64,000 nucleotides of DNA, taken from Mobula hypostoma. Lineage: Eukaryota. The stretch covers positions 117,554,001 to 117,618,000 of the forward strand of contig NC_086097.1 of NCBI RefSeq assembly GCF_963921235.1, read 5' to 3'. Both the position numbers and the translations under genes were made by a program. The notes beneath the pieces were generated by a model, which saw only the letters and a list, made by a program, of their open reading frames with translations, did not search any database and was not told where the DNA came from. Below are positions 5,042 to 56,374 of the stretch, one piece after another (the stretch's first letter is position 1; each line of letters starts with the position of its first letter).

Positions 5042-6490
5042 GACTGCATTGGCGCTGCTTCCTGAATGCATGCAGAACTCGTTGACTTTATTAACTTTGC
5101 CTCCAACTTTCACCCCGTCCTCAAGTTTACCTGGTCCATTTCCGACACCTCCCTCCCCTTTCTAGATCTTTCTGTCTCTGTCTCTGGAGACAGCTTATCC
5201 ACTGATGTCTACTATAAGCCTACTGACTCTCACAGCTATCAGGACTACTCCTCTTCTCACCCTGTCTCTTGCAAAAACGCCATCCCCTTCTCGCAATTCC
5301 TCCGTCTCCGCCGCATCTGCTCTCAGGATGAGGCTTTTCATTCTAGGACGAGGGAGATGTCTTCATTTTTTAAAGAAAGGGGCTTCCCTTCCTCCACTAT
5401 CAACTCTGCTCTTAAACGCATCTCCCCCATTTCACGGACATTTGCTCTCACTCCATCCTCCCACCACCCCACTAGGAATAGGGTTCCCCTGGTCCTCACC
5501 TACCACACCACCAGCCTCCGGGTCCAACATATTATTCTCCGTAACTTCCGCCACCTCCAACGGGATCCCACCACTAAGCACATCTTTCCCTCCCCCCCTC
5601 TCTCTGCATTCCGCAGGGATCGCTCCTTACACAACTCCCTTGTCCATTCGTCCCCCCCATCCCTCCCCACTGATCTCCCTCCCAGCACTTATCCGTGTAA
5701 GCGGAACAAGTGCTACACATGCCCTTACACTTCCTCCCTTACCAGCATTCAGGGCCCCAAACAGTCCTTCCAGGTGAGGCATCACTTCACCTGTGAGTCG
5801 ACTGGGGTGATATACTGCGTCCGGTGCTCCCGATGTGGCCTTTTATATATTGGTGAGACCCGACACAGACTGGGAGACCGCTTTGCTGAACATCTACGCT
5901 CTGTCCGCCAGAGAAAGCAGGATCTCCCAGTGGCCACACATTTTAATTCCACATCCCATTCCCATTCTGACATGTCTATCCACGGCCTCCTCTACTGTAA
6001 AGATGAAGCCACACTCAGGTTGGAGGAACAACACCTTATATTCCGTCTGGGTAGCCTCCAACCTGATGGCATGAACATCGACTTCTCTAACTTCTGCTAA
6101 GGCCCCACCTCTCCCTCGTACCCCATCTGTTACTCATTTTTATGCACACATTCTTTCTCTCACTCTCCTTTTTCTCCCTCTGTCCCTCTGAATATACCTC
6201 TTGCCCATCCTCTGGGTCACCCCCCCTTGTCTTTCTTCCCGGACCTCCTGTCCCATGATCCTCTCGTATCCCCTTTGCCTTTCACCTGTCCAGCTCTTGG
6301 CTCTATCCCTCCCCCTCCTGTCTTCTCCTATCATTTTGGATCTCCCCCTCCCCCTCCAGCTTTCAAATCCCTTACTCACTCTTCCTTCAGTTAGTCCTGA
6401 TGAAGGGTCTCGGCCTGAAACGTCGACTGCGCCTCTTCCTATAGATGCTGCTTGGCCTGCTGCATTCAGCAGCAACTTTGATGTATGTTG
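5042..6490 (+). mobile_element. 5'-truncated Penelope-like element (Neptune-type): RT thumb, Cys linker, GIY-YIG endonuclease and 3' UTR
   Basis: ORF 5066..6100: LPFLDLSV, YYKPTDSHSY, CKRNKCYTC, GVIYCVRCSRCGLLYIGETRHRLGDRFAEH, LEEQHLIFRLGSLQPDGMN; near-identical to 34775-36220. Confidence 0.95.
6393..6428 (+). ncRNA. Minimal type I hammerhead ribozyme motif in the PLE 3' end
   Basis: AGTC CTGATGA AGG-gtctcgg-CCT GAAA CGTC GACT: stem I AGTC/GACT, CUGAUGA and GAAA boxes, stem II AGG/CCT, palindromic ACGT stem III, GUC cleavage triplet. Confidence 0.8.
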
Positions 6491-14123: not shown

Positions 14124-16634
14124 TTTATTAGTATGGTAGTGGAAGCTGGTGTGGTCTTTTGTTGCTGTAGCCAATCTGCTTCAAGGTTTGATGTGTTGTG
14201 CATTCAGAGATACTCTTCTGCACACCACTGTCGTAACACGTGGTTACTTGAGATATTGTCACCTTCCTGTCAGCTTGAACTAGTCTGGCCATACTTTATA
14301 CTTTATTGTCGCAAAACAATTGGTACTAGAATGTACAATCATCACAGTGATATTTGATTCTGCACTTCCCACTCCATGGATTACAAATATTAAATATTAA
14401 AAATATTAAGAATAGTTAAAATTAATAAATATTTAAAAATTTAAATTATAAATCATAAATAGAAAATAGAAAAATGGGAGGTAAGGTAGTGCAAAAAAGC
14501 CTAGAGGCAGGTCCGGATATTTGGAGGGTAGGGCCCAGATCCGGGTCAGGATCCGTTCAGCAGTCTTATCACAGTTGGAAAGAAGCTGTTCCCAAATCTG
14601 GCTGTATGAGTCTTCAAGCTCTTGAGCCTTCTCCCGGAGGGAAGAGGGATGAAAAGTGTGTTGGCTGGGTGGGTCATGTCCTTAATTATCCTGACAGTAC
14701 TGCTCCGACAGCGTGCGGTGTAAAGTGAGTCAAAGGACAGAAGATTGGTTTGTGTGATGTGCTGCGCCCTGTTCACGATCTTCTGCAGCTTCTTTCGGTC
14801 TTGGACAGAACAACTTCCATACCAGGTTGTGATGCACCCTAGAAGAATGCTTTCTACGGTGCATCTATAAAAATTAGTGAGGGTTTTAGGGGACAGGACA
14901 AATTTCTTTAGTTTTCTCAGGAAGTAAAGGCAATGGTGGACCATCTTGACAGTGAACTCTGCTTGGTTGGACATAGTCAGGTCATTTGTGATATTGACCC
15001 TGAGGAACTTAAAGCTTTTGACCTGTTCCATTTGCGCACCACCGATGTAAATTGGGTCTGCGGTTCACTACTCCTTCTGAAGTCAACAACCAATTCCTTC
15101 ATCTTGCTGACGTTGAGGGATAGGTTATTGTCTTCGCACCATGCCACCCGGTTCTTAATTTCCTCTCTGTACTCAAACTCATCATTTCCCGAGATACGGC
15201 CTACAATTGTTGTGTCATCAGCAAACTTATATATTGAGTTTGATGGAAACTTGGCTACACAATCATGGGTGTACAGTGAGTACAGCAGGGGGCTGAGTAC
15301 ACAGCCTTGTGGGGCACCGGTGCTCAGAGTGATTGTAGAGGAGAGCTTGTCCCCTATTTTTACAGCCTGGGTCCTGTCTGTGAGGAAGTTGAAGATCCAG
15401 CTGCAGATCTGAGTGCTAAGGCCCAGGTTCCGGAGCTTAGGAATCAGTTTATTTGGAATAATGGTATTAAAGGCAGAACTGTAGTCAATGAAAAGGAGCC
15501 TTACGCATGCATCTTTATTCTCCAGGTGTTCTAAGGAGGAATGTAGGGCCAGAGAGATGGCATCTGCCGTTGACCTGTTGCTCCGGTAGGCGAACTGCAA
15601 AGCATCGAGGTTGACCGGTAGACTGTGGTTGATGTGTGCCAAAACCAATCTCTCGAAGCACTTCATAGTAATTGATGTCAGAGCCACAGGTCGATAGTCA
15701 TTCAGGCATGCCACCTTGCTCTTCTTCAGCACTAGGATTATCATCGTCTTCTTAAAACATGAAGGGATCTTAGACTGAAGCAAGGAACAGTTGAAGATGT
15801 CAGCAAACACTCCAGCTAGCTCGCTTGCACAGGCCCAGAGAACCCGTCCTGGAACACAATCTGGGCCTATCGCCTTCCTTGAATTTATCTTCAGGAAGGC
15901 CCTTCTAACGTCCTCCTCGGTGACGATGAATCTCGATACCACCAGGTCCGGTTCATCTGGAGGGAGCAGGACGCTCCTCTTCTGTTCGAATCTTGCGTAG
16001 AATACGTTAAGTTCGTCAGGAAGAGAAATGCCACAGTTATTGATATTCCCGGCCTTTTTTTTGCACCCAGTGATCTCATTTAGACCCTGCCATAGTCTAC
16101 TGGCATCCCTTTGGTTAACCTAGGCTTCCAACTTGCCTCTTGGCGCCCTTAACAGCTTTCTGGAGTTCACGCCTGGATTCCGTGTAGCGACTGGTATCCC
16201 CGGACCTAAAAGCCTCAGCCCTAGCCTTTAAAAGGGACTTGACCTCATAATTCATCCAAGGTTTCCGGTTAGGGAATGCCCATTCTCCTCTGACCTCTCT
16301 CTTAACAAGGTGTTTTCACCCACAGAACTGCTGCTCACTGGATTTTTTGTTTTTTTGTTTTTCACAGCATTCTTCGTAAACTCCAGACTGCAATGCATAA
16401 AAACCCAAGAGGATCAGTAGCTTCTGAGATACTCAATTCACTCCATCTGGCACCAACTATCATTCCATAGTCAAAGGTACTTATATTACATTTTTCCCCA
16501 GTCTGATGTTTGGCATGAACAACAACTAAACCCCTTGACCATGCTTTTATGCTTTGAGCTGCTGTCACATGACTGGCTGATTACATATTTGCATTAGCAA
16601 GCAGGTATACAGGTGTATCTAATAAAGTGGCCAC
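14124..16634 (-). mobile_element. Non-autonomous Tc1-like element split by a Rex1 insertion (parts 14124-14292 and 16280-16634)
   Basis: gaactagtctggCCAT|...|CCATtctcctctgacc rejoins; terminus ..aataaagtggccac at 16621-16634. Confidence 0.8.
14293..16279 (-). mobile_element. 5'-truncated Rex1/Babar-type LINE with an almost intact RT (one frameshift near 15035)
   Basis: ORF 14977..15942(-): KAIGPD, NDYRPVALTSITMKCFERLV, QFAYR..RST.DA, LFIDYSSAFNTI, GAPQGCVLSPLL, KFADDT; continues in 14546..15031(-). CCAT is duplicated at the junctions. Confidence 0.93.
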
Positions 16635-16934: not shown

Positions 16935-18144
16935 TGTCATCATCCAGTCCGTGAAATCCACATTCCGGTTCACGGTCCGATCCAATGACCCTTGCTCCAG
17001 GTTTTCTTATCTACCCTGTTTCTGTTCCTGTGGAACACTAATTGAGGCAGCTGATTCTCGTTGGGGCTGGCGGCATAAATACCTTCAGAGACCAGGGTGT
17101 GGCTGTTGGATTGTCCTTGTCCTTACTCCTTGTATCCCTTCCCCTGCCTTCTGTTTCCTTGCCTGAAGCCTTGCCTTGTCTTGCTGGTTACTCCCGCCTC
17201 GCCTGAAGTTCTGGTCTTGTCTTGCCTCGCATTGCCTGAAACCTTGCTTTATCTTGCCAGTGACTCTTGCCTCACCTGAAGTTCTTGTCTCGTCTTGCAT
17301 TGCCTGAAGCCTTGCCTTGTCTTGCTGGTAACTCTCGCCTCGTCTCGCCTGCAGTCTTGTCCTGGAGCCACCCTGTACCTAGCTCCCTTCCTGTCCTTTG
17401 CCTCCGCCGGGTAAGTCAGGCCAGATTGCCGTTACCCTGTGGTTGCTTCTGTCCCTTCCTGTCCCTTGCCTCCATCGGGTAAGCCAGGCCAGATTGTCGT
17501 TACCCTGCAGTGGGTCCTGTCCCTTCTTATCCCTTGCCTCCGTCGGGTAAGCCAGGCCAGATTGCTGTTACCCTGCGGTGGGTTCTGTCCCTTCCTGTCC
17601 TTTGCCTCCATCGGGTGGAGATCCACACCCTGCCCAGGAGGAGGAGCTTCAAGACCCCAAGCCTCTAGCCAAGCCTCGCTTCAAGTCTCTAGCCAAGCCT
17701 CACCTCGAATCTCTAGCCAAGCCTCGCCTCGAGTCTCTAGCTAAGCTTCGCCTTGAGTCTCTAGCTAAGCCTTGCCTCGAGTCTCTAGCCTCCAGCCTCA
17801 CCTCGCCTCAAGTCTCCAGCCTCCAGCCTTGCCTCGCCTCAAGCTTCTGGTCCCCAGCCTTGCCTCAAGCCTCTGGTCTCCAGCCTTGTCCTGCCTAACA
17901 GCCAAGTAACGTCCTTGCCTAGTTCTAGGGTCCGAGGCAGAGGTAAGACCCAGGTTCTGGGTCCTTGTCCAGTCTCTGGCTCGGAGCCCAAGCCCGGGCT
18001 CCTAGCTCTCTTGTCCAGTCCTGTTCCGGGTTCCTGGTTTTTGTGTCCATGTCCTAGCCCTCTCCCTGTTTCCTAGTCCAGTCCCTAGTACTTCAGTGTC
18101 TGTGTCTTGCATTTGGGTCCATTCCCAGCCACCTCCTTATGACA
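16935..18144 (+). mobile_element. Solo LTR (1210 bp) of the same family as 53488-55953
   Basis: TGTCAT...ATGACA termini; 5-bp TSD CAGGG (16930-34 and 18145-49); CATAAATA box at ~17074; internal tandem repeats. Confidence 0.93.
17660..17800 (+). repeat. 24-bp VNTR within the LTR (TCTCTAGCCAAGCCTCGCCTCGAG, ~6 copies)
   Basis: Visible as SLAKPRLE repeats in ORF 17578..17898. Confidence 0.9.
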
Positions 18145-33421: not shown

Positions 33422-36258
33422 CAAGATTCCAGCCTTGAACTCCAGGCCGGGTCTTTATGTGCTGCTATTGTGACTCCCGTCTCCCCTTCCACCACCAATA
33501 CTCTGCAATCTGGTCTCCCTCAGATCCCATCGTCAGCTCCTGGGCCCTCAGAGGCTCCATCTTCCTCTCACCCCAACCCTCCTCTCTCTATTGACACCCC
33601 CAGCCTCCCCCTTCCCCCCTCTGATCCCAGCTCTCATCCGTGCCGGGTCTTTACCATCCCCTCCGACCTTCAACTGTCGGAGGCAGAACACTCTGTTCTC
33701 AGTAAGGGCCTCACGTTTGTCCCCCTTCGCCCACACCTCAGCGAGTTCCGTGTTCGCCATGATGCGGAACTTTTCTTCCGCCGTTTCCGCCTCCGAGCCT
33801 ACTTCTTCGGCAAGGACTCTTCCACCCCCACCAATGACCCCTTCTCCCGTCTTCAACCCTTCTCTTCTTCATGGACACCCCGCTCTGGTCTTCTGCCTGC
33901 TCTGGATCTCTTTATCGCTAACTGCCGGCGGGACATCAATCGTCTCGACTTCACCGCACCTTGTCCCCATTCCAACCTCACTCCTTCGGAACGCTCTGCT
34001 CTCCACTCCCTCTGCACTAATCCTAACCTTATTATTAAACCCGCCGATAAGGGGGGTGCTGTTGTAGTCTGGCGTACTGACCTCTACCTTGCCGAGGCAC
34101 AGCGACAACTCGCGGATACCTCCTCTTATTTACCCTCGATCGTGACCCCACTAAGGAGCACCAGGCCATTGTCTCCCACACCATCACCGACTTTATCCGC
34201 TCAGGGGATCTCCCATCCACTGCTACCAACCTTATAGTTCCCACACCTCGCACTTCCCGTTTCAGCCTCCTACCCAAGATCCACAAACCTGCCTGTTCTG
34301 GCCTACCTATTGTCTCAGCTTGCTCCTGCCCCACCAAACTTGTTTCTGCATACCTCGACACAGTTTTATCCCCCCTTGTTCAATCCCTTCCGACCTATGT
34401 TCGTGACACTTCTCACGTTCTTAAACTTTTCGATGATTTTAAGTTCCTGGCCCCCACCGCTTTACTTTCACCATGGATGTCCAGTCCCTATATACTTCCA
34501 TCCCCCATCAGGAAGGTCTCAAAGCTTTACGCTTCTTTTTGGATTCCAGACCTAATCAGTTCCCCTCTACCACCACTCCACTCCGTCTAGCGGAATTAGT
34601 CCTTACTCTTAATAATTTCTCCTTTGGCTCCTCCCACTTCCTCCAAACTAAAGGTGTAGCTATGGACACCCGTATGGGTCCTAGCTATGCCTGCCTTTTT
34701 GTTGGGTTTGTGGAACAATCTATGTTCCGTGCCTATTCTGGTATCTGTCCCCCACTTTTCCTTCGCTACATCGACGACTGCATTGGCGCTGCTTCCTGCA
34801 CGCATGCAGAACTCGTTGACTTTATTAACTTTGCCTCCAACTTTCACCCTGCCCTCAAGTTTACCTGGTCCATTTCCAACACCTCCCTCCCCTTTCTAGA
34901 TCTTTCTGTCTCTGTCTCTGGAGACAGCTTATCCACTGATGTCTACTATAAGCCTACTGACTCTCACAGCTATCTGGACTATTCCTCTTCTCACCCTGTC
35001 TCTTGCAAGAACGCCATCCCCTTCTCGCAATTCCTCTGTCTCTGCCGCATCTGCTCTCAGGATGAGGCTTTTCATTCTAGGACGAGGGAGATGTCTTCCT
35101 TTTTTAAAGAAAGGGGCTTCCCTTCCTCCACTATCAACTCTGCTCTTAAACGCATCTCCCCCATTTCACGTACATCTACTCTCACTCTATCCTCCCACCA
35201 CCCCACTAGGAATAGGGTTCCCCTGGTCCTCACCTACCACCCCACCAGCCTCCGGGTCCAACATATTATTCTCCGTAACTTCCGCCACCTCCAATGGGAT
35301 CCCACCACTAAGCACATCTTTCCCTCCCCCCGTCTCTCTGCATTCCGCAGGGATTGCTCCCTACGCAACTCCCTTGTCCATTCGCCCCCCCCATCCCTCC
35401 CCACTGATCTCCCTCCTGGCACTTATCCTTGTAAGCGGAACAAGTGCTACACATGCCCTTACACTTCCTCCCTTACCAGCATTCAGGGCCCCAAACAGTC
35501 CTTCCAGGTGAGGCAACACTTCACCTGTGAGTCGGCTGGGGTGATATACTGCGTCCGGTGCTCCCGATGTGGCCTTTTATATATTGGTGAGACCCGACGC
35601 AGACTGGGAGACCGCTTTGCTGAACATCTACGCTCTGTCTGCCAGAGAAAGCAGGATCTCCCAGTGGCTACACATTTTAATTCCACATCCCATTCCCATT
35701 CTGACATGTCTATCCACGGCCTCCTCTACTGTAAAGATGAAGCCACACTCAGGTTGGAGGAACAAACCTTATATTCCGTCTGGGTAGCCTCCAACCTGAT
35801 GGCATGAACATCGACTTCTCTAACTTCCGCTAAGGCCCCACCTCCCCATCGTACCCCATCTGTTACTTATTTTTATGCACACATTCTTTCTCTCACTCTC
35901 CTTTTTCTCCCTCTGACCCTCTGACTATACCTCTTGCCCATCCTCTGGGTACCCCCCCTTGTCTTTCTTCCCGGACCTCCTGTCCCATGATCCTCTCATA
36001 TCCCCTTTTGCCAATCACCTGTCCAGCTCTTGGCTCCATCCCTCCCCCTCCTGTCTTCTCCTATCATTTTGGATCTCCCCCTCCCCCTCCAACTTTCAAA
36101 TTCCTTACTCACTCTTCCTTTAGTTAGTCCTGACGAAGAGTCTCGGCCTGAAACGTCGACTGTACCTCTTCCTAGAGATGCTGCCTGGCCTGCTGCGTTC
36201 ACCAGCAACTTTGATGTGTGTTGCTTGAATTTCCAGCATCTGCAGAATTCCTGTTGTT
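33422..36258 (+). mobile_element. Large Penelope-like element (Neptune-type) with RT and GIY-YIG, three frameshifts, 12-bp TSD
   Basis: LSKGLTFVP; IIKPADKGGAVVVW; MDVQSLYTSIPH; GVAMDTRMGPSYA; FLRYIDDC; LPFLD; GVIYCVRCSRCGLLYIGET. TSD TAAATATGTATT at 33410-33421 and 36259-36270, within a CR1 3' end. Confidence 0.95.
36126..36161 (+). ncRNA. Minimal hammerhead ribozyme motif (stem II weakened)
   Basis: AGTC CTGACGA AGAGTCTCGGCCT GAAA CGTC GACT. Confidence 0.7.
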
Positions 36259-45212: not shown

Positions 45213-48200
45213 TGACTCTCTCTCTCTTAAAAACAATATGTCAGTGTTAATTAACTCTTTCGCTCTCTTTTCAAAAGCACAGTTCATAGGAGTAATCAAG
45301 CGCAGTTCATAGGGGTAATTCAGGAACCCGTCACATCCCCTTCCTTCAAAAAGAAATTTTGACAGAGGCAAAATTTTTGTTTAACTGGAAATTTCAGAGT
45401 TTGAGACAATACATATATAATCATCAGATGACAGAGCAAAACATGTACAATTTCCAACCACATCTGAATAAATAATCTGCTATAATATTGTCAGTACCTT
45501 TGACATGTTTGATTGTCAGGTCATATTCTTGCAATATTAGACTCCAATTTAATAACCATCTATTTTTATCCTTCATCTTAGTTAGAAACAGCAATGGATT
45601 GTGATCCGTGTAAACCACAAGTGGTCTCTGGGCAGGATAAACATAGACTTCAAAATATTGTAAAGCCACAATAAGTGCTAACAATTCCTTTTCAGCAGTG
45701 GAATAATTTTTCTGGTGCACATTAAATTTCTTTGAGAAATAGGCTACTGGGTGTTCAATGTCATCCACTCCCTTCTGTAACAGTACTGCCCCAGCAGCTT
45801 CATCACTAGCGTCTGTTGCTATAGAAAATGGCTTGGAAAAATCAGGTGCTTTGAGCACAGGATGATAACACAGGATGGTTTTCAGACGTTCAAATGCCTC
45901 CTGGCAAAAATCACTCCATATAAATCTTTCACTCTTCCCTAGAAGTTTTGTTAGGGGGAGAGCGATGTCATCAAAGTTCTTACAAAACTTATGATAATAC
46001 CCAACCATTCCCAAAAATCTTCTTAAAGCTTTCTTGCCTGTACAGGAGACAGTTGGACCTGGCCTACTACATAGCCCAGATATGTAACTGTGGCATGACC
46101 AAACACACTTTTAGTGAGGTTCGCAGTAAGATTGGCCTTGGAAAGTCTGTCAGACAGTTTTTCTACCCCTGCAATATGCTCTTCCCACGTATCATTCCAG
46201 ACCACTAAATCATCGATATAAGCCCCTGTGTTTTCTAAACCTCTAATCATGTCCCTGGAGCATTTTTCATCCTGAAGGGTAAAACACTGTATTCATACAG
46301 CCCCGAAGGTGTGACAATTGCTGATATCTCTTTAGCCCTCTCTGTCAAAGGAACACACCAATATCCTTTTAGCAAGTCAATTTTTGTCAGGTACTTAGCC
46401 TTTGCTACTCTGTCAATACAGTCACTCACTCTCTTTCCTTGTTCCTTCTTGTTTCCAATTTCTTGTTCAACCATTTGGCTGGGCTGAATTTACAATGATG
46501 TCATGCCCTTTAGCTGTACACCATCTTGGAATGTCAGGGAATAAATCTTTATGCTTGCTAATTAATTCCTTCACTTGTTGTTGCGGTGCAGGTCCCAACT
46601 GATGGACCTTATCACTAATATTTATCAAAACAATGGAATTTTTAAATCTTGTTGATATTAAACTCAGCAAGTTTAAATGATTTTTCGTCTCATTTTCAGC
46701 CTCTACGACTCCATTTGTTTTCATAACAGTACCCACAGGTGCCATTCTATCAAGCAAGTGTTTTATTTTAATTTGAACATTCTACAAACTTTCCTTTGCA
46801 AGATCACAAACTATATTAAATCTTTTCCACACATTAACCCATATTGCCAAATCAAACCACAGTTCTCTGAGTAGGGTCAAAGGTCCTTTTGGCCTGTGAC
46901 CGAACCCTGGTTCAAACAGACTACCCTCCAATGTTTTTTGAATCGTATCTCCAACAGTAAGTAAGAGTAGGGGAACCCCCTCATCCCAGTTTTTCCCAAT
47001 TTTTCACACAATATGTTTTAATCATGGTCTTAAGAGTGGAGTTGAACCGTTCCAAGGCTCTCTTGGACTCTGTGTGATATGCAGGTGACACAGTGTGCTT
47101 AACTCCCAGTTCTCCAACTATCCCCTGGAATATTCTTTAAGTAAGGTTACTACCCTGGTCAAATTGAATTTCTTTGGGCAGACCGATCAGTGTGAAAAAC
47201 TTACTGAATGCTTTTACCACAGTCTTGGCCTTGATGTTTCCAAGAGGCACAGCTTCAGGAACCTAGACACAGCACGCATAATTGTTAACAGATACTGATG
47301 ACCAGCTGCAGTCTTTAGCAATAGGCTGACACAATCCACTATGATCCTGGAAAAAGGTTCATCAAAAGCAGGTATCGATTTAAGTGGTGTTACTTGAATA
47401 ACCTGATTAAATTTCTCCTCAGTCTGGCAGGTATGGCAAGTCCTGCAAAAATTCACAGCATCTTCTCTTAAATTAGGCCAGTAGAATTCCATCATAATTC
47501 TGTTCACTGTCTTTCTCACTCCAAAATATCCACCTAAAGGCATACTGTAGCCATGTTTAAAATTTCAGCCCTGTAAACTTTTGCAACCACTACCTGACTT
47601 GCAGGCACAGTAGCTGGTCTCCACTTCCTCAATAACACCCCATCCTTAAGATAATATCCTACTGACTCTCTCTGAACCTCCTCTTCTGTGAGAGCTGTCT
47701 CCTTTAAAGCCATCATATCAGAATCTTTATTCTGTTCCTCTATAAATTCCTTTCTTGATAAGGACAAACATTTCTCATACACCTTACTCTCCAAATCCTG
47801 TTGTAACATGGAAGGTAGAGAAGTCTGTAACACATCATCATGCTTTAAACCTTTGGTTTTGCTATTAGCAGACTTCCTATACATGCTTTGAGTAATTGTG
47901 CATGCGGAATAGACATCAGTCTTTCTGTGTGGTTCATTAGCAACAGCTTGGCTCATTAGTTGAACTGTTAAATCACCCTTGCCTTGGAGAGGTGTCAACC
48001 TCCCCACACTGTTTACTTAACTTAGCAACATCACTAGACTTATAAGAACCATGTGTATATTGTGGAAGAGGCCAAGCAATCAGTTTATCTGATTTTCTAC
48101 GACCTTTATTTCGACCTGTCTCCATAACAGTTTCCAACAGTCCCTCCTGGTCACAACAACACTTCAAGTTCTGTCTCTCCACACCCCAAACTTGAAAAAC

Positions 48201-53256: not shown

Positions 53257-53630
53257 GAACATACTGAAGAGATGGTCAACATAGAAATGAGAGGAAGATA
53301 AATAAGAGAGGGAGTAAGAATGGTAGTGCATGTGATGGAGCCAGGTAGAGAGACTGTCAGAAACTGGGAGTTGATAAGTGGAGTCACGAGGCTGCAGATA
53401 CTGTAACCTGAAAAGTGAGCAAGGTGAGAGTTCGTGTTAGATAAGGGGGAGATATTGATGCCACTTCTGCCACCAAATGCAATAAGCTGTCATGGTACGG
53501 TCTGTGAAGTCCGTATTCTGGTTCTCGGTCCGGTCCATTGATCGACCCTTGCTCCAGGTTTTCCAGTCTACCCTGTTTCTGTTCTTGTAGAGCTCTAATT
53601 GAGGCAGCTGATACTCGTTGGGGCTGGCTG

Positions 53631-53638
53631 CATAAATA
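53631..53638 (+). promoter_or_regulatory. TATA-like box of the LTR
   Basis: CATAAATA conserved in all three LTR copies (~17074, 53631, ~54886), ~31 nt upstream of the PBS-complementary segment. Confidence 0.6.
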
Positions 53639-54083
53639 CATTCAGAGACCAGAGCACAGCTGCTGGATTGTTCTTGTCCTTACTCCTTGTATCCCTTCCT
53701 CTGCCTTCTGTTTCCTCGCCTGAAGCACTGCCTTGTCTTGCCGGTAACTCTCGCCTCACTTGAATTCTCGTCTCGCCTTGCATTGCGTGAAGCCTTGCCT
53801 TGTCTTGCTGGTAACTCCCGCCTCGTCTTTCCTGCAGTCTTGTCCTGGAGCCACTCTGTACCTAGCTCCCTTCCTGTCCCTTGCCTCCATCCAGGTAAGC
53901 CAGGCAGTCTTGCCATTACCTGCGGTTGGTTCTGTCCCTTCCTGTCCCTTGCCACCGTCGTTTCTGTCCCTTCTTGTCCCTTGCTTCTGTCGGGTGGTTA
54001 TCCGTGCCCTGCCGAGGAGTACCGCGCCCTGCTCAGGAGTACCGTGCCCTGCTCAGGAGAACTGCGCCCTGCCCAGGAGGAGC

Positions 54084-54290
54084 CTCCAGCCTCCTGCCTA
54101 GCCTCAAGCCTGCAGACTCCAGCCTCTTGCCTAGCCTCAAGCCTGAAGACCCCAGCCTCCTGCCTAACCTCAAGACTGAAGACTCCAGCCTCCTGCCTAG
54201 CCTCAAGCCTGAAGACTCCAGCCTCCTGCCTCCTGCCAAGCCTTGCCTCTGGCTCTAGCCTCAAGCCTGAAGATTGCAGCCTTCTTCCTC
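54084..54290 (+). repeat. 33-bp VNTR within the LTR (CTCCAGCCTCCTGCCTAGCCTCAAGCCTGAAGA)
   Basis: About 5 units (PASCLASSLKT repeats in the ORF track), preceded by ~21-bp GTACCGCGCCCTGCTCAGGAG units at 54003-54080. Confidence 0.9.
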
Positions 54291-56374
54291 CTTCCAAGCC
54301 TCGCCTCAAGTCACCTAGACTCCAGCCTCGTCCTGCCTGCCAGTCAGGCCTCATCCTTGCCTAGTTCTGGGGTCCGAGCCAGAGGCAAGACCCATGTTCT
54401 GGATCCTTGTCCAATCTCTGGCTCAGAGTTCAAGCCCGCGCTCCCAGCTCTCTTCTCCAGTCCTGTTCCGGGTTCCTGGTTTTCGTGTCCATGTCCTTGC
54501 CCTCACCCTATATCCTAGTCCTGTCCCTTGTCCTTCAGTGTCTGTGTCTTGCACTTGGGTCCGTTCCCAGTCACCCGCCTTATGACAGAACAATCCAGCC
54601 ACCCATGGACCCAGCGACACAGACACTGTTATTTTCCTCTTGCCACCTGGGGTTCATTTCTGTTAAATACCCTCCCACCCGCCTGGGTCATCCATAGTCT
54701 GGATACTCTGTTTGGTTGCCAGGAGGCTCTCATTGAGGAGGGGTACTGTCATGGTCCGGTCCGTGAAGTCCATATTCCAGTTCATGGTCTGGTCCATCGA
54801 CCCTTGCTCCAGGTTTTCCTGTCTACCCTGTTTCTGTTCTTGTTGAGCTCTAATTGAGGCAGCTGATGCTCATTGGGGCTGGCTGCATAAATACCTTCAG
54901 AGACCAGGGTGTGGCTGCTGGATTGTTCTTGTCCTTACTCCTTGTATCCCTTCCTCTGCCTTCTGTTTCCTCGCCTGAAGCCCTGCCTTGTCTTGCCAGT
55001 AAATCTCACTTCACCTGAAGTTCTCGTCTCACCTTGCATTGTGTGAAGCCTTGCCTTGTCTTGCTGGTAACTTTTGCCTCGTCTTGCCTGAAGTCTTGCC
55101 CTGGAGCCACCCTGTACCCAGCTCCCTTCTTATCCCTTGCCTCTGCTCAGGTAAACCAGGTTGTCTTGTCGTTACCTGCGGTTGGTTCTGTCCCTTCTGG
55201 TCATTTGCCTCCGTCGGGTAAGCCAGACCGCATTGTCGATACCTGCGGTTGGTTTTGTCACTTCCTGTCCCTTGCCTCTGCTGGGTGGTTATCCACACCC
55301 TGCCCAGGAGGAGCTTCCAGCCTCCTACCTAGCTTCAAGCCTGAAGACTCCAGCCTCCTGCCTAGCCTCAAGCCTGAAGACTCCTGCCTCCTGCCTCCTT
55401 CTCCTGCCAAGCCTTGCCTCTGGCCTCTAGCCTCTAGCCTGAAGACTCCAGACTCCTGCATCCTGCCAAGCCTCACCTTAAGTCTCTGGCGTCTAGCCTC
55501 AAGCCTCAAGTCTCCAGCCTCCTGCCTCCTGCCAACTCTCACCTCTAGTCTCTGGCCTCTAGCCTCAAGCCTCAAGTCTCCAGCCTCTTGCCTCCTGCCA
55601 AGCCTCATGTCAAGTCTCCTGCCTCCTGCCAAGCCTCATGTCAAGTCTCCTGCCTCCTGCCAAGCCTCACCTCAAGTCACCTAGACTCCAGCCTCGTCCT
55701 GCCTGCCAGCCAGGCCTCATCTTTGCCTAGTTCTGGGGTCCGAGCCAGAGGCAAGACCTAGGTTCTGGGTCCTTGTCCAGTCTCTGGCTTGGAGTTCAAG
55801 CCCGGGCTCCTAGCTCTCTTGTCCAGTCCTGTTCTGGGTTCCGGGTTTTCGTGTCCATGTCCTTGCCCTTACCCTGTATCCTAGTCCGGTCTCTAGTCCT
55901 TCAGTGTCTGTGTCTTGCACTTGGGTCTGTTCCCAGCCATCTGCCTTATGACATAAGCATATATAACAGTTCATCTCTGTGCAACAGGAGAATACACAGC
56001 ATGGTACAATGTTTTATTATTTCTTACATTATAATTGCACATTGGTAAAATATTATTGTGTATATTATTATCCTGTAATTTATTATTGGTTAAGTCTGCA
56101 CATGGCTAAGTGTGTCTTTAAATGTTGCTGCTGTAATGAAAGTATCTTCCACTCAGAATCAATAAAGTACTTAGTATTATTATTATTAAAAGTCAGTAAC
56201 ATATGCATGGCTTGTCGATGGGATCTGTTCCTCCTCGCAGAATCTATCCTTCACAATGAATGGAAAACCAAACCTGTGAGGCTTACATAGGCTATAGAGT
56301 CAGGTAATTTGCAGTCACCTACATTGAGGTCCCCGTTACATTATGTGCATTCCCCACAATCTTCAAAGTTCAAA

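What the first reader, a model, noticed from the sequence alone, without database searches (positions are those of the whole stretch)
53488..55953. Complete coding-free LTR element that appears to prime its own reverse transcription (Tf1/sushi-type self-priming)
Seen: two LTRs of 1100 and 1207 bp flank only 159 bp, with a perfect TSD (TAAGC) and a PPT. Where a TGG-starting tRNA PBS should be, the sequence is AGAACAATCCAGC (54587-54599). This is the exact reverse complement of GCTGGATTGTTCT at 53662-53674 inside the LTR, and pairing extends over the LTR end (TGTC/GACA) with a 1-nt bulge. That LTR segment starts ~31 nt after the CATAAATA box, where the transcript 5' end is expected. Established: fission-yeast Tf1 primes with the first ~11 nt of its own RNA, and the same has been proposed for vertebrate Tf1/sushi chromoviruses; the MDPA start right after the PBS fits that group. 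Inference: this is a minimal, tRNA-independent, non-autonomous parasite that keeps only cis signals (self-primer, first gag codons, PPT). It is TRIM-like but has giant LTRs. I cannot tell from this window whether it has been described before.
Basis: partly seen in the sequence, partly recalled or inferred. Interest (0 to 1): 0.8.

Follow-up and report, generated by a model that had tools for sequence, protein, structure and literature searches.

The report
Self-priming gene-less vertebrate LTR retrotransposon
This is one copy of an old, multi-copy jumping element with no genes of its own, whose primer site pairs with a stretch of its own terminal repeat and keeps that pairing as the letters change between related families, so it likely started its DNA copying with its own RNA, a trick known from yeast Tf1, here shrunk to about 160 internal bases.

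Summary
The genome has 229 exact LTR-end+PBS junctions. In 48 junctions examined the internal region is 134-178 bp, and 31 of 37 copies with both ends recovered have a 5-bp TSD, so it transposed in this form. It derives from vertebrate chromoviruses (Tf1/sushi group). The PBS and the LTR segment about 30 nt after the TATA box change together across gag-bearing relatives and two sister non-coding families, with G-U intermediates. New here: a U5-leader stem that completes the three-duplex Tf1 'pretzel'. The kept 'gag codons' are probably one arm of that stem, since 17 of 28 sister copies lack the ATG. Not shown: transcription start, cleavage, the exact helper, a full tRNA exclusion. Against: 7 satellite units carry the PBS word with no primer. 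Self-priming is known for this group, and long-LTR non-coding elements are known in plants; my searches found no paper on the combination in a vertebrate. This scan noted the sister subfamily in this genome and similar elements elsewhere.

The parts
53483..53487 (+). left target-site duplication TAAGC
53488..54587 (+). 5' LTR, 1100 bp; predicted U3 about 174 bp, R-U5 about 926 bp, much of it tandem repeats
   Evidence: U3/R border inferred from TATA spacing
53631..53638 (+). TATA-like box CATAAATA
   Evidence: 31 nt before the primer in 39 of the 41 copies (of 48) where the box is intact
53662..53673 (+). predicted self-primer, the predicted first 12 nt of the RNA
   Evidence: start site not measured
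53675..53678 (+). 4-nt extension pairing with the LTR end 54584-54587 (second duplex)
53860..53990 (+). 68-bp repeat units; about 42 nt resemble integrase-coding DNA of relatives
   Evidence: suggestive
54002..54307 (+). 20-, 33- and 58-bp tandem repeats; repeat number varies and makes LTR length vary
54536..54562 (+). U5 arm of the U5-leader stem (third duplex)
   Evidence: predicted pair probabilities 0.91-0.99
54588..54599 (+). primer-binding site, no TGG, complementary to 53662-53673
54605..54628 (+). gag-start remnant; 54607-54628 is the leader arm of the U5-leader stem
54665..54734 (+). remnant of the end of pol, apparently without the chromodomain
54735..54743 (+). polypurine tract
   Evidence: G-rich and of variable length in other copies
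54747..55953 (+). 3' LTR, 1207 bp; TATA-like box at 54886, primer copy at 54917
55954..55958 (+). right target-site duplication TAAGC
16935..18144 (+). solo LTR of the same family, TSD CAGGG

Best explanation
It is one copy of a multi-copy, protein-free LTR retrotransposon family derived from vertebrate Tf1/sushi chromoviruses, which likely primed reverse transcription with the first 11-12 bases of its own RNA and was likely mobilised by proteins of related autonomous elements. Shown by sequence: family-wide layout, separate TSDs, homology of both ends of the internal region to chromovirus relatives, and joint change of PBS and primer segment. Predicted by folding: three duplexes (primer-PBS 12 bp; primer extension-LTR end 4 bp; U5-leader about 22 bp), the Tf1 'pretzel'. 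Inferred from Tf1: transcription starts near 53662; the RNA is packaged by a helper; helper RNase H cuts after about base 11-12; the freed piece primes minus-strand DNA at the LTR edge; the purine tract primes the plus strand; helper integrase inserts the DNA with a 5-bp duplication. The family is old (median LTR-LTR identity 92%) and probably inactive; most LTRs sampled are now solo.
For: Transposed as such: all 40 scored hits span nearly the whole junction; internal 134-178 bp in 48 of 48; TSD exact in 25 and one mismatch in 6 of 37 with both ends; own LTR pairs more alike than cross pairs (median 93.0 vs 91.0%). Lineage: relatives carry DUF4939/gag, RT, RNase H, integrase, SH3 and Chromo in gypsy order; the leader matches their gag start and the 3' part their pol end. 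Joint change: among 25 gag-bearing relatives plus the window, pair 6 is A-T in 14 and T-A in 10; the window differs on both sides at pairs 3, 4 and 8; its primer makes 11 Watson-Crick pairs with its own PBS but 5-8 with theirs. A TATA-like motif lies 29-31 nt upstream in 20 of 25. Sister subfamily B changes pair 7 on both sides (PBS G in 26 of 28; primer C in 14, wobble T in 12, other 2). Family C has the intermediate state at pairs 3 and 4. U5-leader stem: 15 or more pairs in 48 of 48 copies; present in relatives; leader arm kept in subfamily B where 17 of 28 lack the ATG. Literature: Tf1 mechanism and pretzel (passages of PMC7175516; 10.1101/2022.12.06.519325).
Against: No RNA evidence for the start site or the cut. 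In a nested-only fold of the 989-nt 5' RNA the primer-PBS pairs have probability 0.02; they cross the U5-leader stem, which the program cannot represent together with them, and my estimate (about 10 kcal/mol to open both sites, -25.4 gained) leaves out pseudoknot and loop penalties across a 926-nt gap. 7 of the first 30 junction hits are satellite units of family C, and none of 9 such units checked has a complement better than 8.5 of 12 within 1.5 kb; 2 more are inverted rearrangements. Primer segments in relatives were picked as the best match and relatives are kin, so the permutation result (0 of 20000) is not a probability. Own LTR pair ranked first in only 12 of 31. Only 3-6 tRNA isotypes were compared. 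No AATAAA/ATTAAA in the last 300 nt of 48 of 48 LTRs, so how the RNA ends is unexplained. No helper with the same LTR or PBS was found.
Confidence: 0.82

Rival explanations
1. The PBS-LTR complementarity is an inherited or structural feature (packaging, dimerisation, promoter), and priming uses a host tRNA fragment or other small RNA.
For: No direct priming data; tRNA set incomplete; satellite units keep the PBS word without a primer.
Against: The PBS has no TGG and changes in step with an LTR segment about 30 nt after the TATA box across families, which a fixed host primer would not cause; best tRNA duplex found -12.5 vs -21.8 kcal/mol for the LTR segment.
Confidence: 0.08
2. The element is a full-length retrotransposon that lost its genes after insertion; the short form never transposed.
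For: The internal region is made of gag-start and pol-end remnants.
Against: The same junction recurs at 48 of 48 loci on many contigs with different TSDs; 0 of 30 LTR-start hits and 0 of 30 junction hits lead into coding sequence.
Confidence: 0.02
3. Self-priming is real, but copies spread mainly by DNA recombination or tandem amplification, or the primer comes in trans from a second packaged RNA.
For: Tandem LTR-internal-LTR arrays occur (L028, L071/L072, L152, L180); primer and PBS lie 926 nt apart; Tf1 cDNA forms single-LTR tandems by annealing (passages of PMC11042837).
Against: 31 of 37 complete copies and 23 of 23 solo LTRs have 5-bp TSDs with at most one mismatch, the mark of integrase; the family's primer pairs poorly with relatives' PBS and the reverse, which speaks against a helper RNA as primer but not against a second family RNA.
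Confidence: 0.08

Closest known systems
Tf1/Tf2 of Schizosaccharomyces pombe, Tj1, Tosmo1-3, Tcry1 (self-primed Ty3/gypsy chromoviruses)
   Same: PBS complementary to the predicted RNA 5' end; potential for the three-duplex pretzel; PPT.
   Different: No proteins; vertebrate host; primer and PBS 926 nt apart; priming not tested here.
Vertebrate Tf1/sushi group, V-clade (sushi-ichi, Amn-ichi/ni/san); self-priming proposed by Butler et al. 2001 (seen only as cited)
   Same: Relatives in this genome are gypsy elements with DUF4939 gag and a chromodomain, RT 60-71% identical to fish proteins, with the same PBS-primer layout.
   Different: This family is reduced to a 160-bp internal region with its own PBS-primer letters and 0.9-1.5 kb LTRs; no tree with sushi-ichi or Tf1 was built.
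TRIMs and other non-autonomous LTR elements (PMC10886601, PMC6934838, PMC4717578, 10.64898/2026.03.01.708851)
   Same: Two LTRs, short non-coding internal region with PBS and PPT, 5-bp TSD, solo LTRs and tandem arrays; long LTRs around short internals are described in sugar beet.
   Different: 2.5 kb rather than under 1 kb; the PBS is not tRNA-type (the sugar beet families are assigned tRNA PBS types; bivalve TRIMs lack a clear PBS and no mechanism was proposed); the non-plant TRIM hosts listed in PMC10886601's introduction are insects, cestodes and bivalves.

Membership tests
Non-autonomous LTR retrotransposon | two LTRs with TG...CA ends, PPT, short TSD | tested here: met
Non-autonomous LTR retrotransposon | no coding capacity | tested here: met
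   159-bp internal region; LTR ORFs without Pfam match
Non-autonomous LTR retrotransposon | transposed in the deleted form | tested here: met
   shared junction, 31 of 37 with TSD
TRIM in the strict sense | under 1 kb, LTRs 100-250 bp (PMC6934838) | tested here: not met
   2466 bp, LTRs 1100 and 1207 bp; fits only the broad use in 10.64898/2026.03.01.708851
TRIM in the strict sense | PBS complementary to a tRNA | tested here: inconclusive
   no TGG at the PBS; no match among the few isotypes recovered
Tf1/sushi chromoviruses (as a derivative) | Ty3/gypsy pol order with C-terminal chromodomain | tested here: met
   met in gag-bearing relatives, not in the element: Chromo 29.5 bits in L085 (cut-off 25.1), 23.1 in L099 (below)
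Tf1/sushi chromoviruses (as a derivative) | RT groups with Tf1 or sushi-ichi in a tree | not tested
   no named reference RT came back; best hits are fish gypsy proteins and, among solved structures, Ty3 RT
Tf1/sushi chromoviruses (as a derivative) | sequence link between element and those relatives | tested here: met
   PBS+gag start 85% over 40 nt to L082; pol end, PPT and LTR start 77% over 65 nt; U5/leader scores 50-94 vs 29-38 reversed
Tf1-type self-priming | PBS complementary to the first ~11 nt of the RNA | tested here: inconclusive
   complementarity and joint change met; start site inferred from TATA spacing only
Tf1-type self-priming | two flanking duplexes (pretzel) | tested here: met
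   predicted only: 4-bp extension and U5-leader stem
Tf1-type self-priming | RNase H cleavage releases the primer | not testable with these tools
   needs biochemistry

The most novel reading that the evidence does not exclude
This genome holds a reductive series of self-primed, chromodomain-less sushi derivatives (internal 2.7-2.9 kb, 303 bp, 160 bp) that marks the minimal cis-element for tRNA-free reverse transcription in a vertebrate: primer, PBS, a U5-leader stem made from the old gag start, a scrap of pol end and the PPT. The parasites drifted to PBS-primer letters not seen in any sampled helper and work across a 0.9-kb loop, so the helper's RNase H would read the fold, not the sequence.
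Probability: 0.55. Interest if true: 0.55.

Novelty: new variant of a known kind. Interest (0 to 1): 0.42.

Why it matters
Self-priming is proven in fission yeast and only proposed for vertebrate sushi elements. With no protein to preserve, these families show which bases the priming fold needs: both-sided changes with wobble intermediates are natural evidence for the pretzel in vertebrates, and the short non-coding RNA is a ready substrate for probing and cleavage assays. It also warns annotators that gene-less LTR families without a tRNA PBS are real and can be abundant (at least 1345 LTRs). The mechanism itself is not new.

Tried and rejected
Direct helper: two patterns for this PBS followed by a gag-like start found only short-internal copies (19 hits) or nothing; no LTR-wide homology in 20 long stretches; not found, not shown absent. 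L097's 1.1-kb LTR looked like a long-LTR helper but appears to owe its length to an inserted unrelated repeat (read). RNA: no RNA holder listed; four contig-only runs were laid and cannot show start or strand. Rfam: two weak chance-level matches only. Co-folding primer and PBS region as two strands was dropped: that model cannot bind inside a loop; replaced by opening-energy estimates. tRNA screen: the best 60 Rfam hits gave few isotypes (Lys, Cys, Thr; Tyr, Leu, Pro calls look like intron artefacts), so inconclusive. TSD counts had an offset error, redone. Rows dropped before the 26-row pair count: of 50 gag stretches, 6 duplicates and those without my PBS anchor; of the 28 relatives anchored, L094 (duplicate of L052), L031 and L089 (no good complement found; LTR probably truncated or decayed). 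L073 dropped as duplicate of L004. Lin and Levin 1998 (PMC109269) is not held. No supplements were read; those of PMC6317226 and PMC4717578 may list self-primed non-autonomous plant elements.

Full report
Observation. The element is as described: LTRs at 53488-54587 and 54747-55953 (89.7% identical over aligned bases), a 159-bp internal region, TSD TAAGC and a purine tract at 54735-54743. The 13 bases from 54587 are the reverse complement of 53662-53674, which starts 31 nt after CATAAATA. No shuffle of 2000 reached 13. The best duplex is 12 bp, a bulge and 4 bp, -25.4 kcal/mol.

It is a family. The window lies in a 3.48-Gb genome. The host is a vertebrate by the relatives' best protein hits; earlier scan notes call it a ray, which I did not test. 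All 40 scored hits to the LTR-internal-LTR junction cover nearly the whole query at 88-92% (self 100%). In 48 junctions (49 loci less one duplicate; the window's own included; some share an array) the internal region is 134-178 bp. Both ends were recovered in 37: 25 have an exact 5-bp TSD, 6 one mismatch, 6 more mismatches. Exact patterns count 229 LTR-end+PBS junctions and 1345 primer sites, with 0 for the reversed controls; these are lower bounds. Of the 30 best LTR-start hits, 23 are solo LTRs with TSD (15 exact, 8 one mismatch), 6 border the short internal region and 1 is unresolved. Of the first 30 junction hits, 21 lead through 131-182 bp to the next LTR, 7 are satellite units of another family and 2 are inversions. 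Median LTR-LTR identity is 91.9% in 24 copies, within the roughly 83-95% range of gag-bearing relatives, so the family is old and helpers could have been active at the time.

Origin. A DUF4939 search gave 150 scored matches; I read 30 short and 20 long stretches. Long ones carry gag, RT, RNase H, integrase, SH3 and a chromodomain in gypsy order. The RT/RNase H is 60-71% identical to fish proteins in most listed hits and closest to Ty3 among solved structures. Vertebrate chromoviruses are the V-clade of the Tf1/sushi group (table passage, PMC6317226); I built no tree with named members. The 5' part of the internal region matches the relatives' PBS and gag start, the 3' part their pol end and PPT. 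The 3' part aligns almost gap-free with two other non-autonomous families that lack the chromodomain, C (303 bp) and D (2.7-2.9 kb), with scores 46.5-53; intact ends score 32-42.5. A shared deletion is therefore suggested, not proven, and a repeated word at both deletion ends could give the same junction twice. No helper with this LTR or PBS was found.

Primer and PBS change together. Within the family the primer is unchanged in 40 of 48 and the PBS in 23 of 48, with a wobble variant in 10 more. In 25 gag-bearing relatives the best complement of the PBS lies 29-31 nt after a TATA-like motif in 20. Pair 6 is A-T in 14 and T-A in 10 of 26 rows, and on a gag-start tree the two states are not each confined to one clade. 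The window differs from the commonest type on both sides at pairs 3, 4 and 8, and cross-pairing gives 5-8 (window primer) or 5-9 (window PBS) of 11 pairs against 11. Following note e1-8034992 I fetched its locus: it is a sister subfamily B, 67-86% identical in pieces, in a three-LTR array. In 28 mapped B loci of 30 the PBS has G at pair 7 in 26, and the primer has C in 14, the wobble T in 12, other in 2; 8 of 12 with both ends have a TSD with at most one mismatch. Family C shows T-A at pair 3 and A-T at pair 4, between the autonomous and A/B states, again 30 nt after a TATA-like motif. Caveats: segments were chosen as best matches, elements are kin, and three rows were dropped (see Tried and rejected).

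A third duplex. U5 bases 54536-54562 pair with 54607-54628, including a perfect 13 bp; pair probabilities are 0.91-0.99 and 1 of 2000 shuffles reached 13. The stem has 15 or more pairs in 48 of 48 copies and counterparts in relatives. With the 4-bp extension this matches the three-duplex pretzel described for Tf1 (passage, 10.1101/2022.12.06.519325). In subfamily B the ATG is absent in 17 of 28 while the leader arm stays, so the gag remnant is probably kept for pairing (inference). The primer duplex crosses this stem. A nested-only fold gives it probability 0.02; opening both sites costs about 10 kcal/mol in the 989-nt RNA against 25.4 gained, without pseudoknot or loop terms.

Mechanism. By analogy with Tf1, where the first 11 bases pair with the PBS and RNase H cuts between bases 11 and 12 (passage, PMC7175516): transcription from about 53662, packaging by a helper, cleavage, minus-strand priming at the LTR edge, PPT priming, integration. 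Only the sequence and folding steps are supported here. Tf1 cDNA often keeps a copied PBS (passage, PMC11042837), so copying of the primer may itself keep PBS and primer matched; that is my inference.

Against. No start-site or cleavage data. Incomplete tRNA screen. Nine satellite units checked keep the PBS word with no complement above 8.5 of 12 within 1.5 kb; they also lack U3 and PPT, while dispersed family C copies have a primer. No poly(A) signal in 48 of 48 LTR ends; it is also absent from 13 of 15 relatives checked.

Literature. Nine searches showed no paper describing a self-primed non-autonomous LTR family in a vertebrate; the library lacks most subscription papers and repeat databases, so this is weak. 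Seen as passages: PMC6317226, 10.1101/2022.12.06.519325, PMC6934838, PMC4600332, PMC3601003, 10.64898/2026.03.01.708851, PMC7175516, PMC11042837. PMC4717578: passages and section 18. PMC10886601: first of six parts. Butler et al. 2001 and the Levin papers were seen only as citations. No supplements were read. Self-priming is described for fungal and vertebrate Tf1/sushi elements, and long-LTR, short-internal non-coding families are described in sugar beet, with tRNA-type PBS. That non-autonomous LTR elements occur in vertebrates is recalled, not from a call. This scan has noted subfamily B in this genome and similar elements in other genomes; those notes are leads, not support.

Verdict. A real feature; a new variant of a known kind. 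Confidence in self-priming 0.82; interest 0.42.

Noticed in passing
L081, L095, L096; L088 (second element, opposite strand to the gag-bearing one): Another non-autonomous family (D): gag and start of protease, then foreign low-complexity sequence with an open frame (369 aa in L095, no Pfam match), SH3 end, chromodomain missing, PPT.
   Followed up: partly
G000:C1:193.48-193.64 Mb (L243-L275): A satellite-like array of about 155 kb built from U5+PBS+gag-start units of family C without U3, primer or PPT; 38 of 40 hits lie there.
   Followed up: partly
L276, L277: Family C: 303-bp internal region with about 26 gag-like codons, own PBS-primer pair, AATAAA near the LTR end.
   Followed up: partly
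window 53908-53987 and 17425-17504: The 68-bp LTR repeat resembles integrase-coding DNA just after the zinc finger: scores 41-47 against 4 of 6 relatives, 0 of 150 shuffles each, but 32 windows were scanned and the relatives are kin.
   Followed up: partly
window 16935-18144: Solo LTR of the same family with TSD CAGGG; 23 of 30 best LTR-start hits are solo LTRs.
   Followed up: yes
L045: An LTR of this family lies in antisense just upstream of the PBS of a gag-bearing relative, apparently inside its LTR.
   Followed up: no
L229, L230 (G000:C2:8328616-8329436): Two PBS junctions on opposite strands, each followed by an inverted piece of LTR instead of an internal region.
   Followed up: no
G000:C1:78.77-78.79 Mb (L241, L242): Array of family copies with a period of about 3.5 kb.
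   Followed up: no
window 5066-6100, 34443-35807; 2084-2992; 14977-16119; 45424-46110: Other mobile-element remnants: weak GIY-YIG matches (Penelope-like), a Tc5/DDE_1 transposase, an RT, and an LTR-type RNase H.
   Followed up: no
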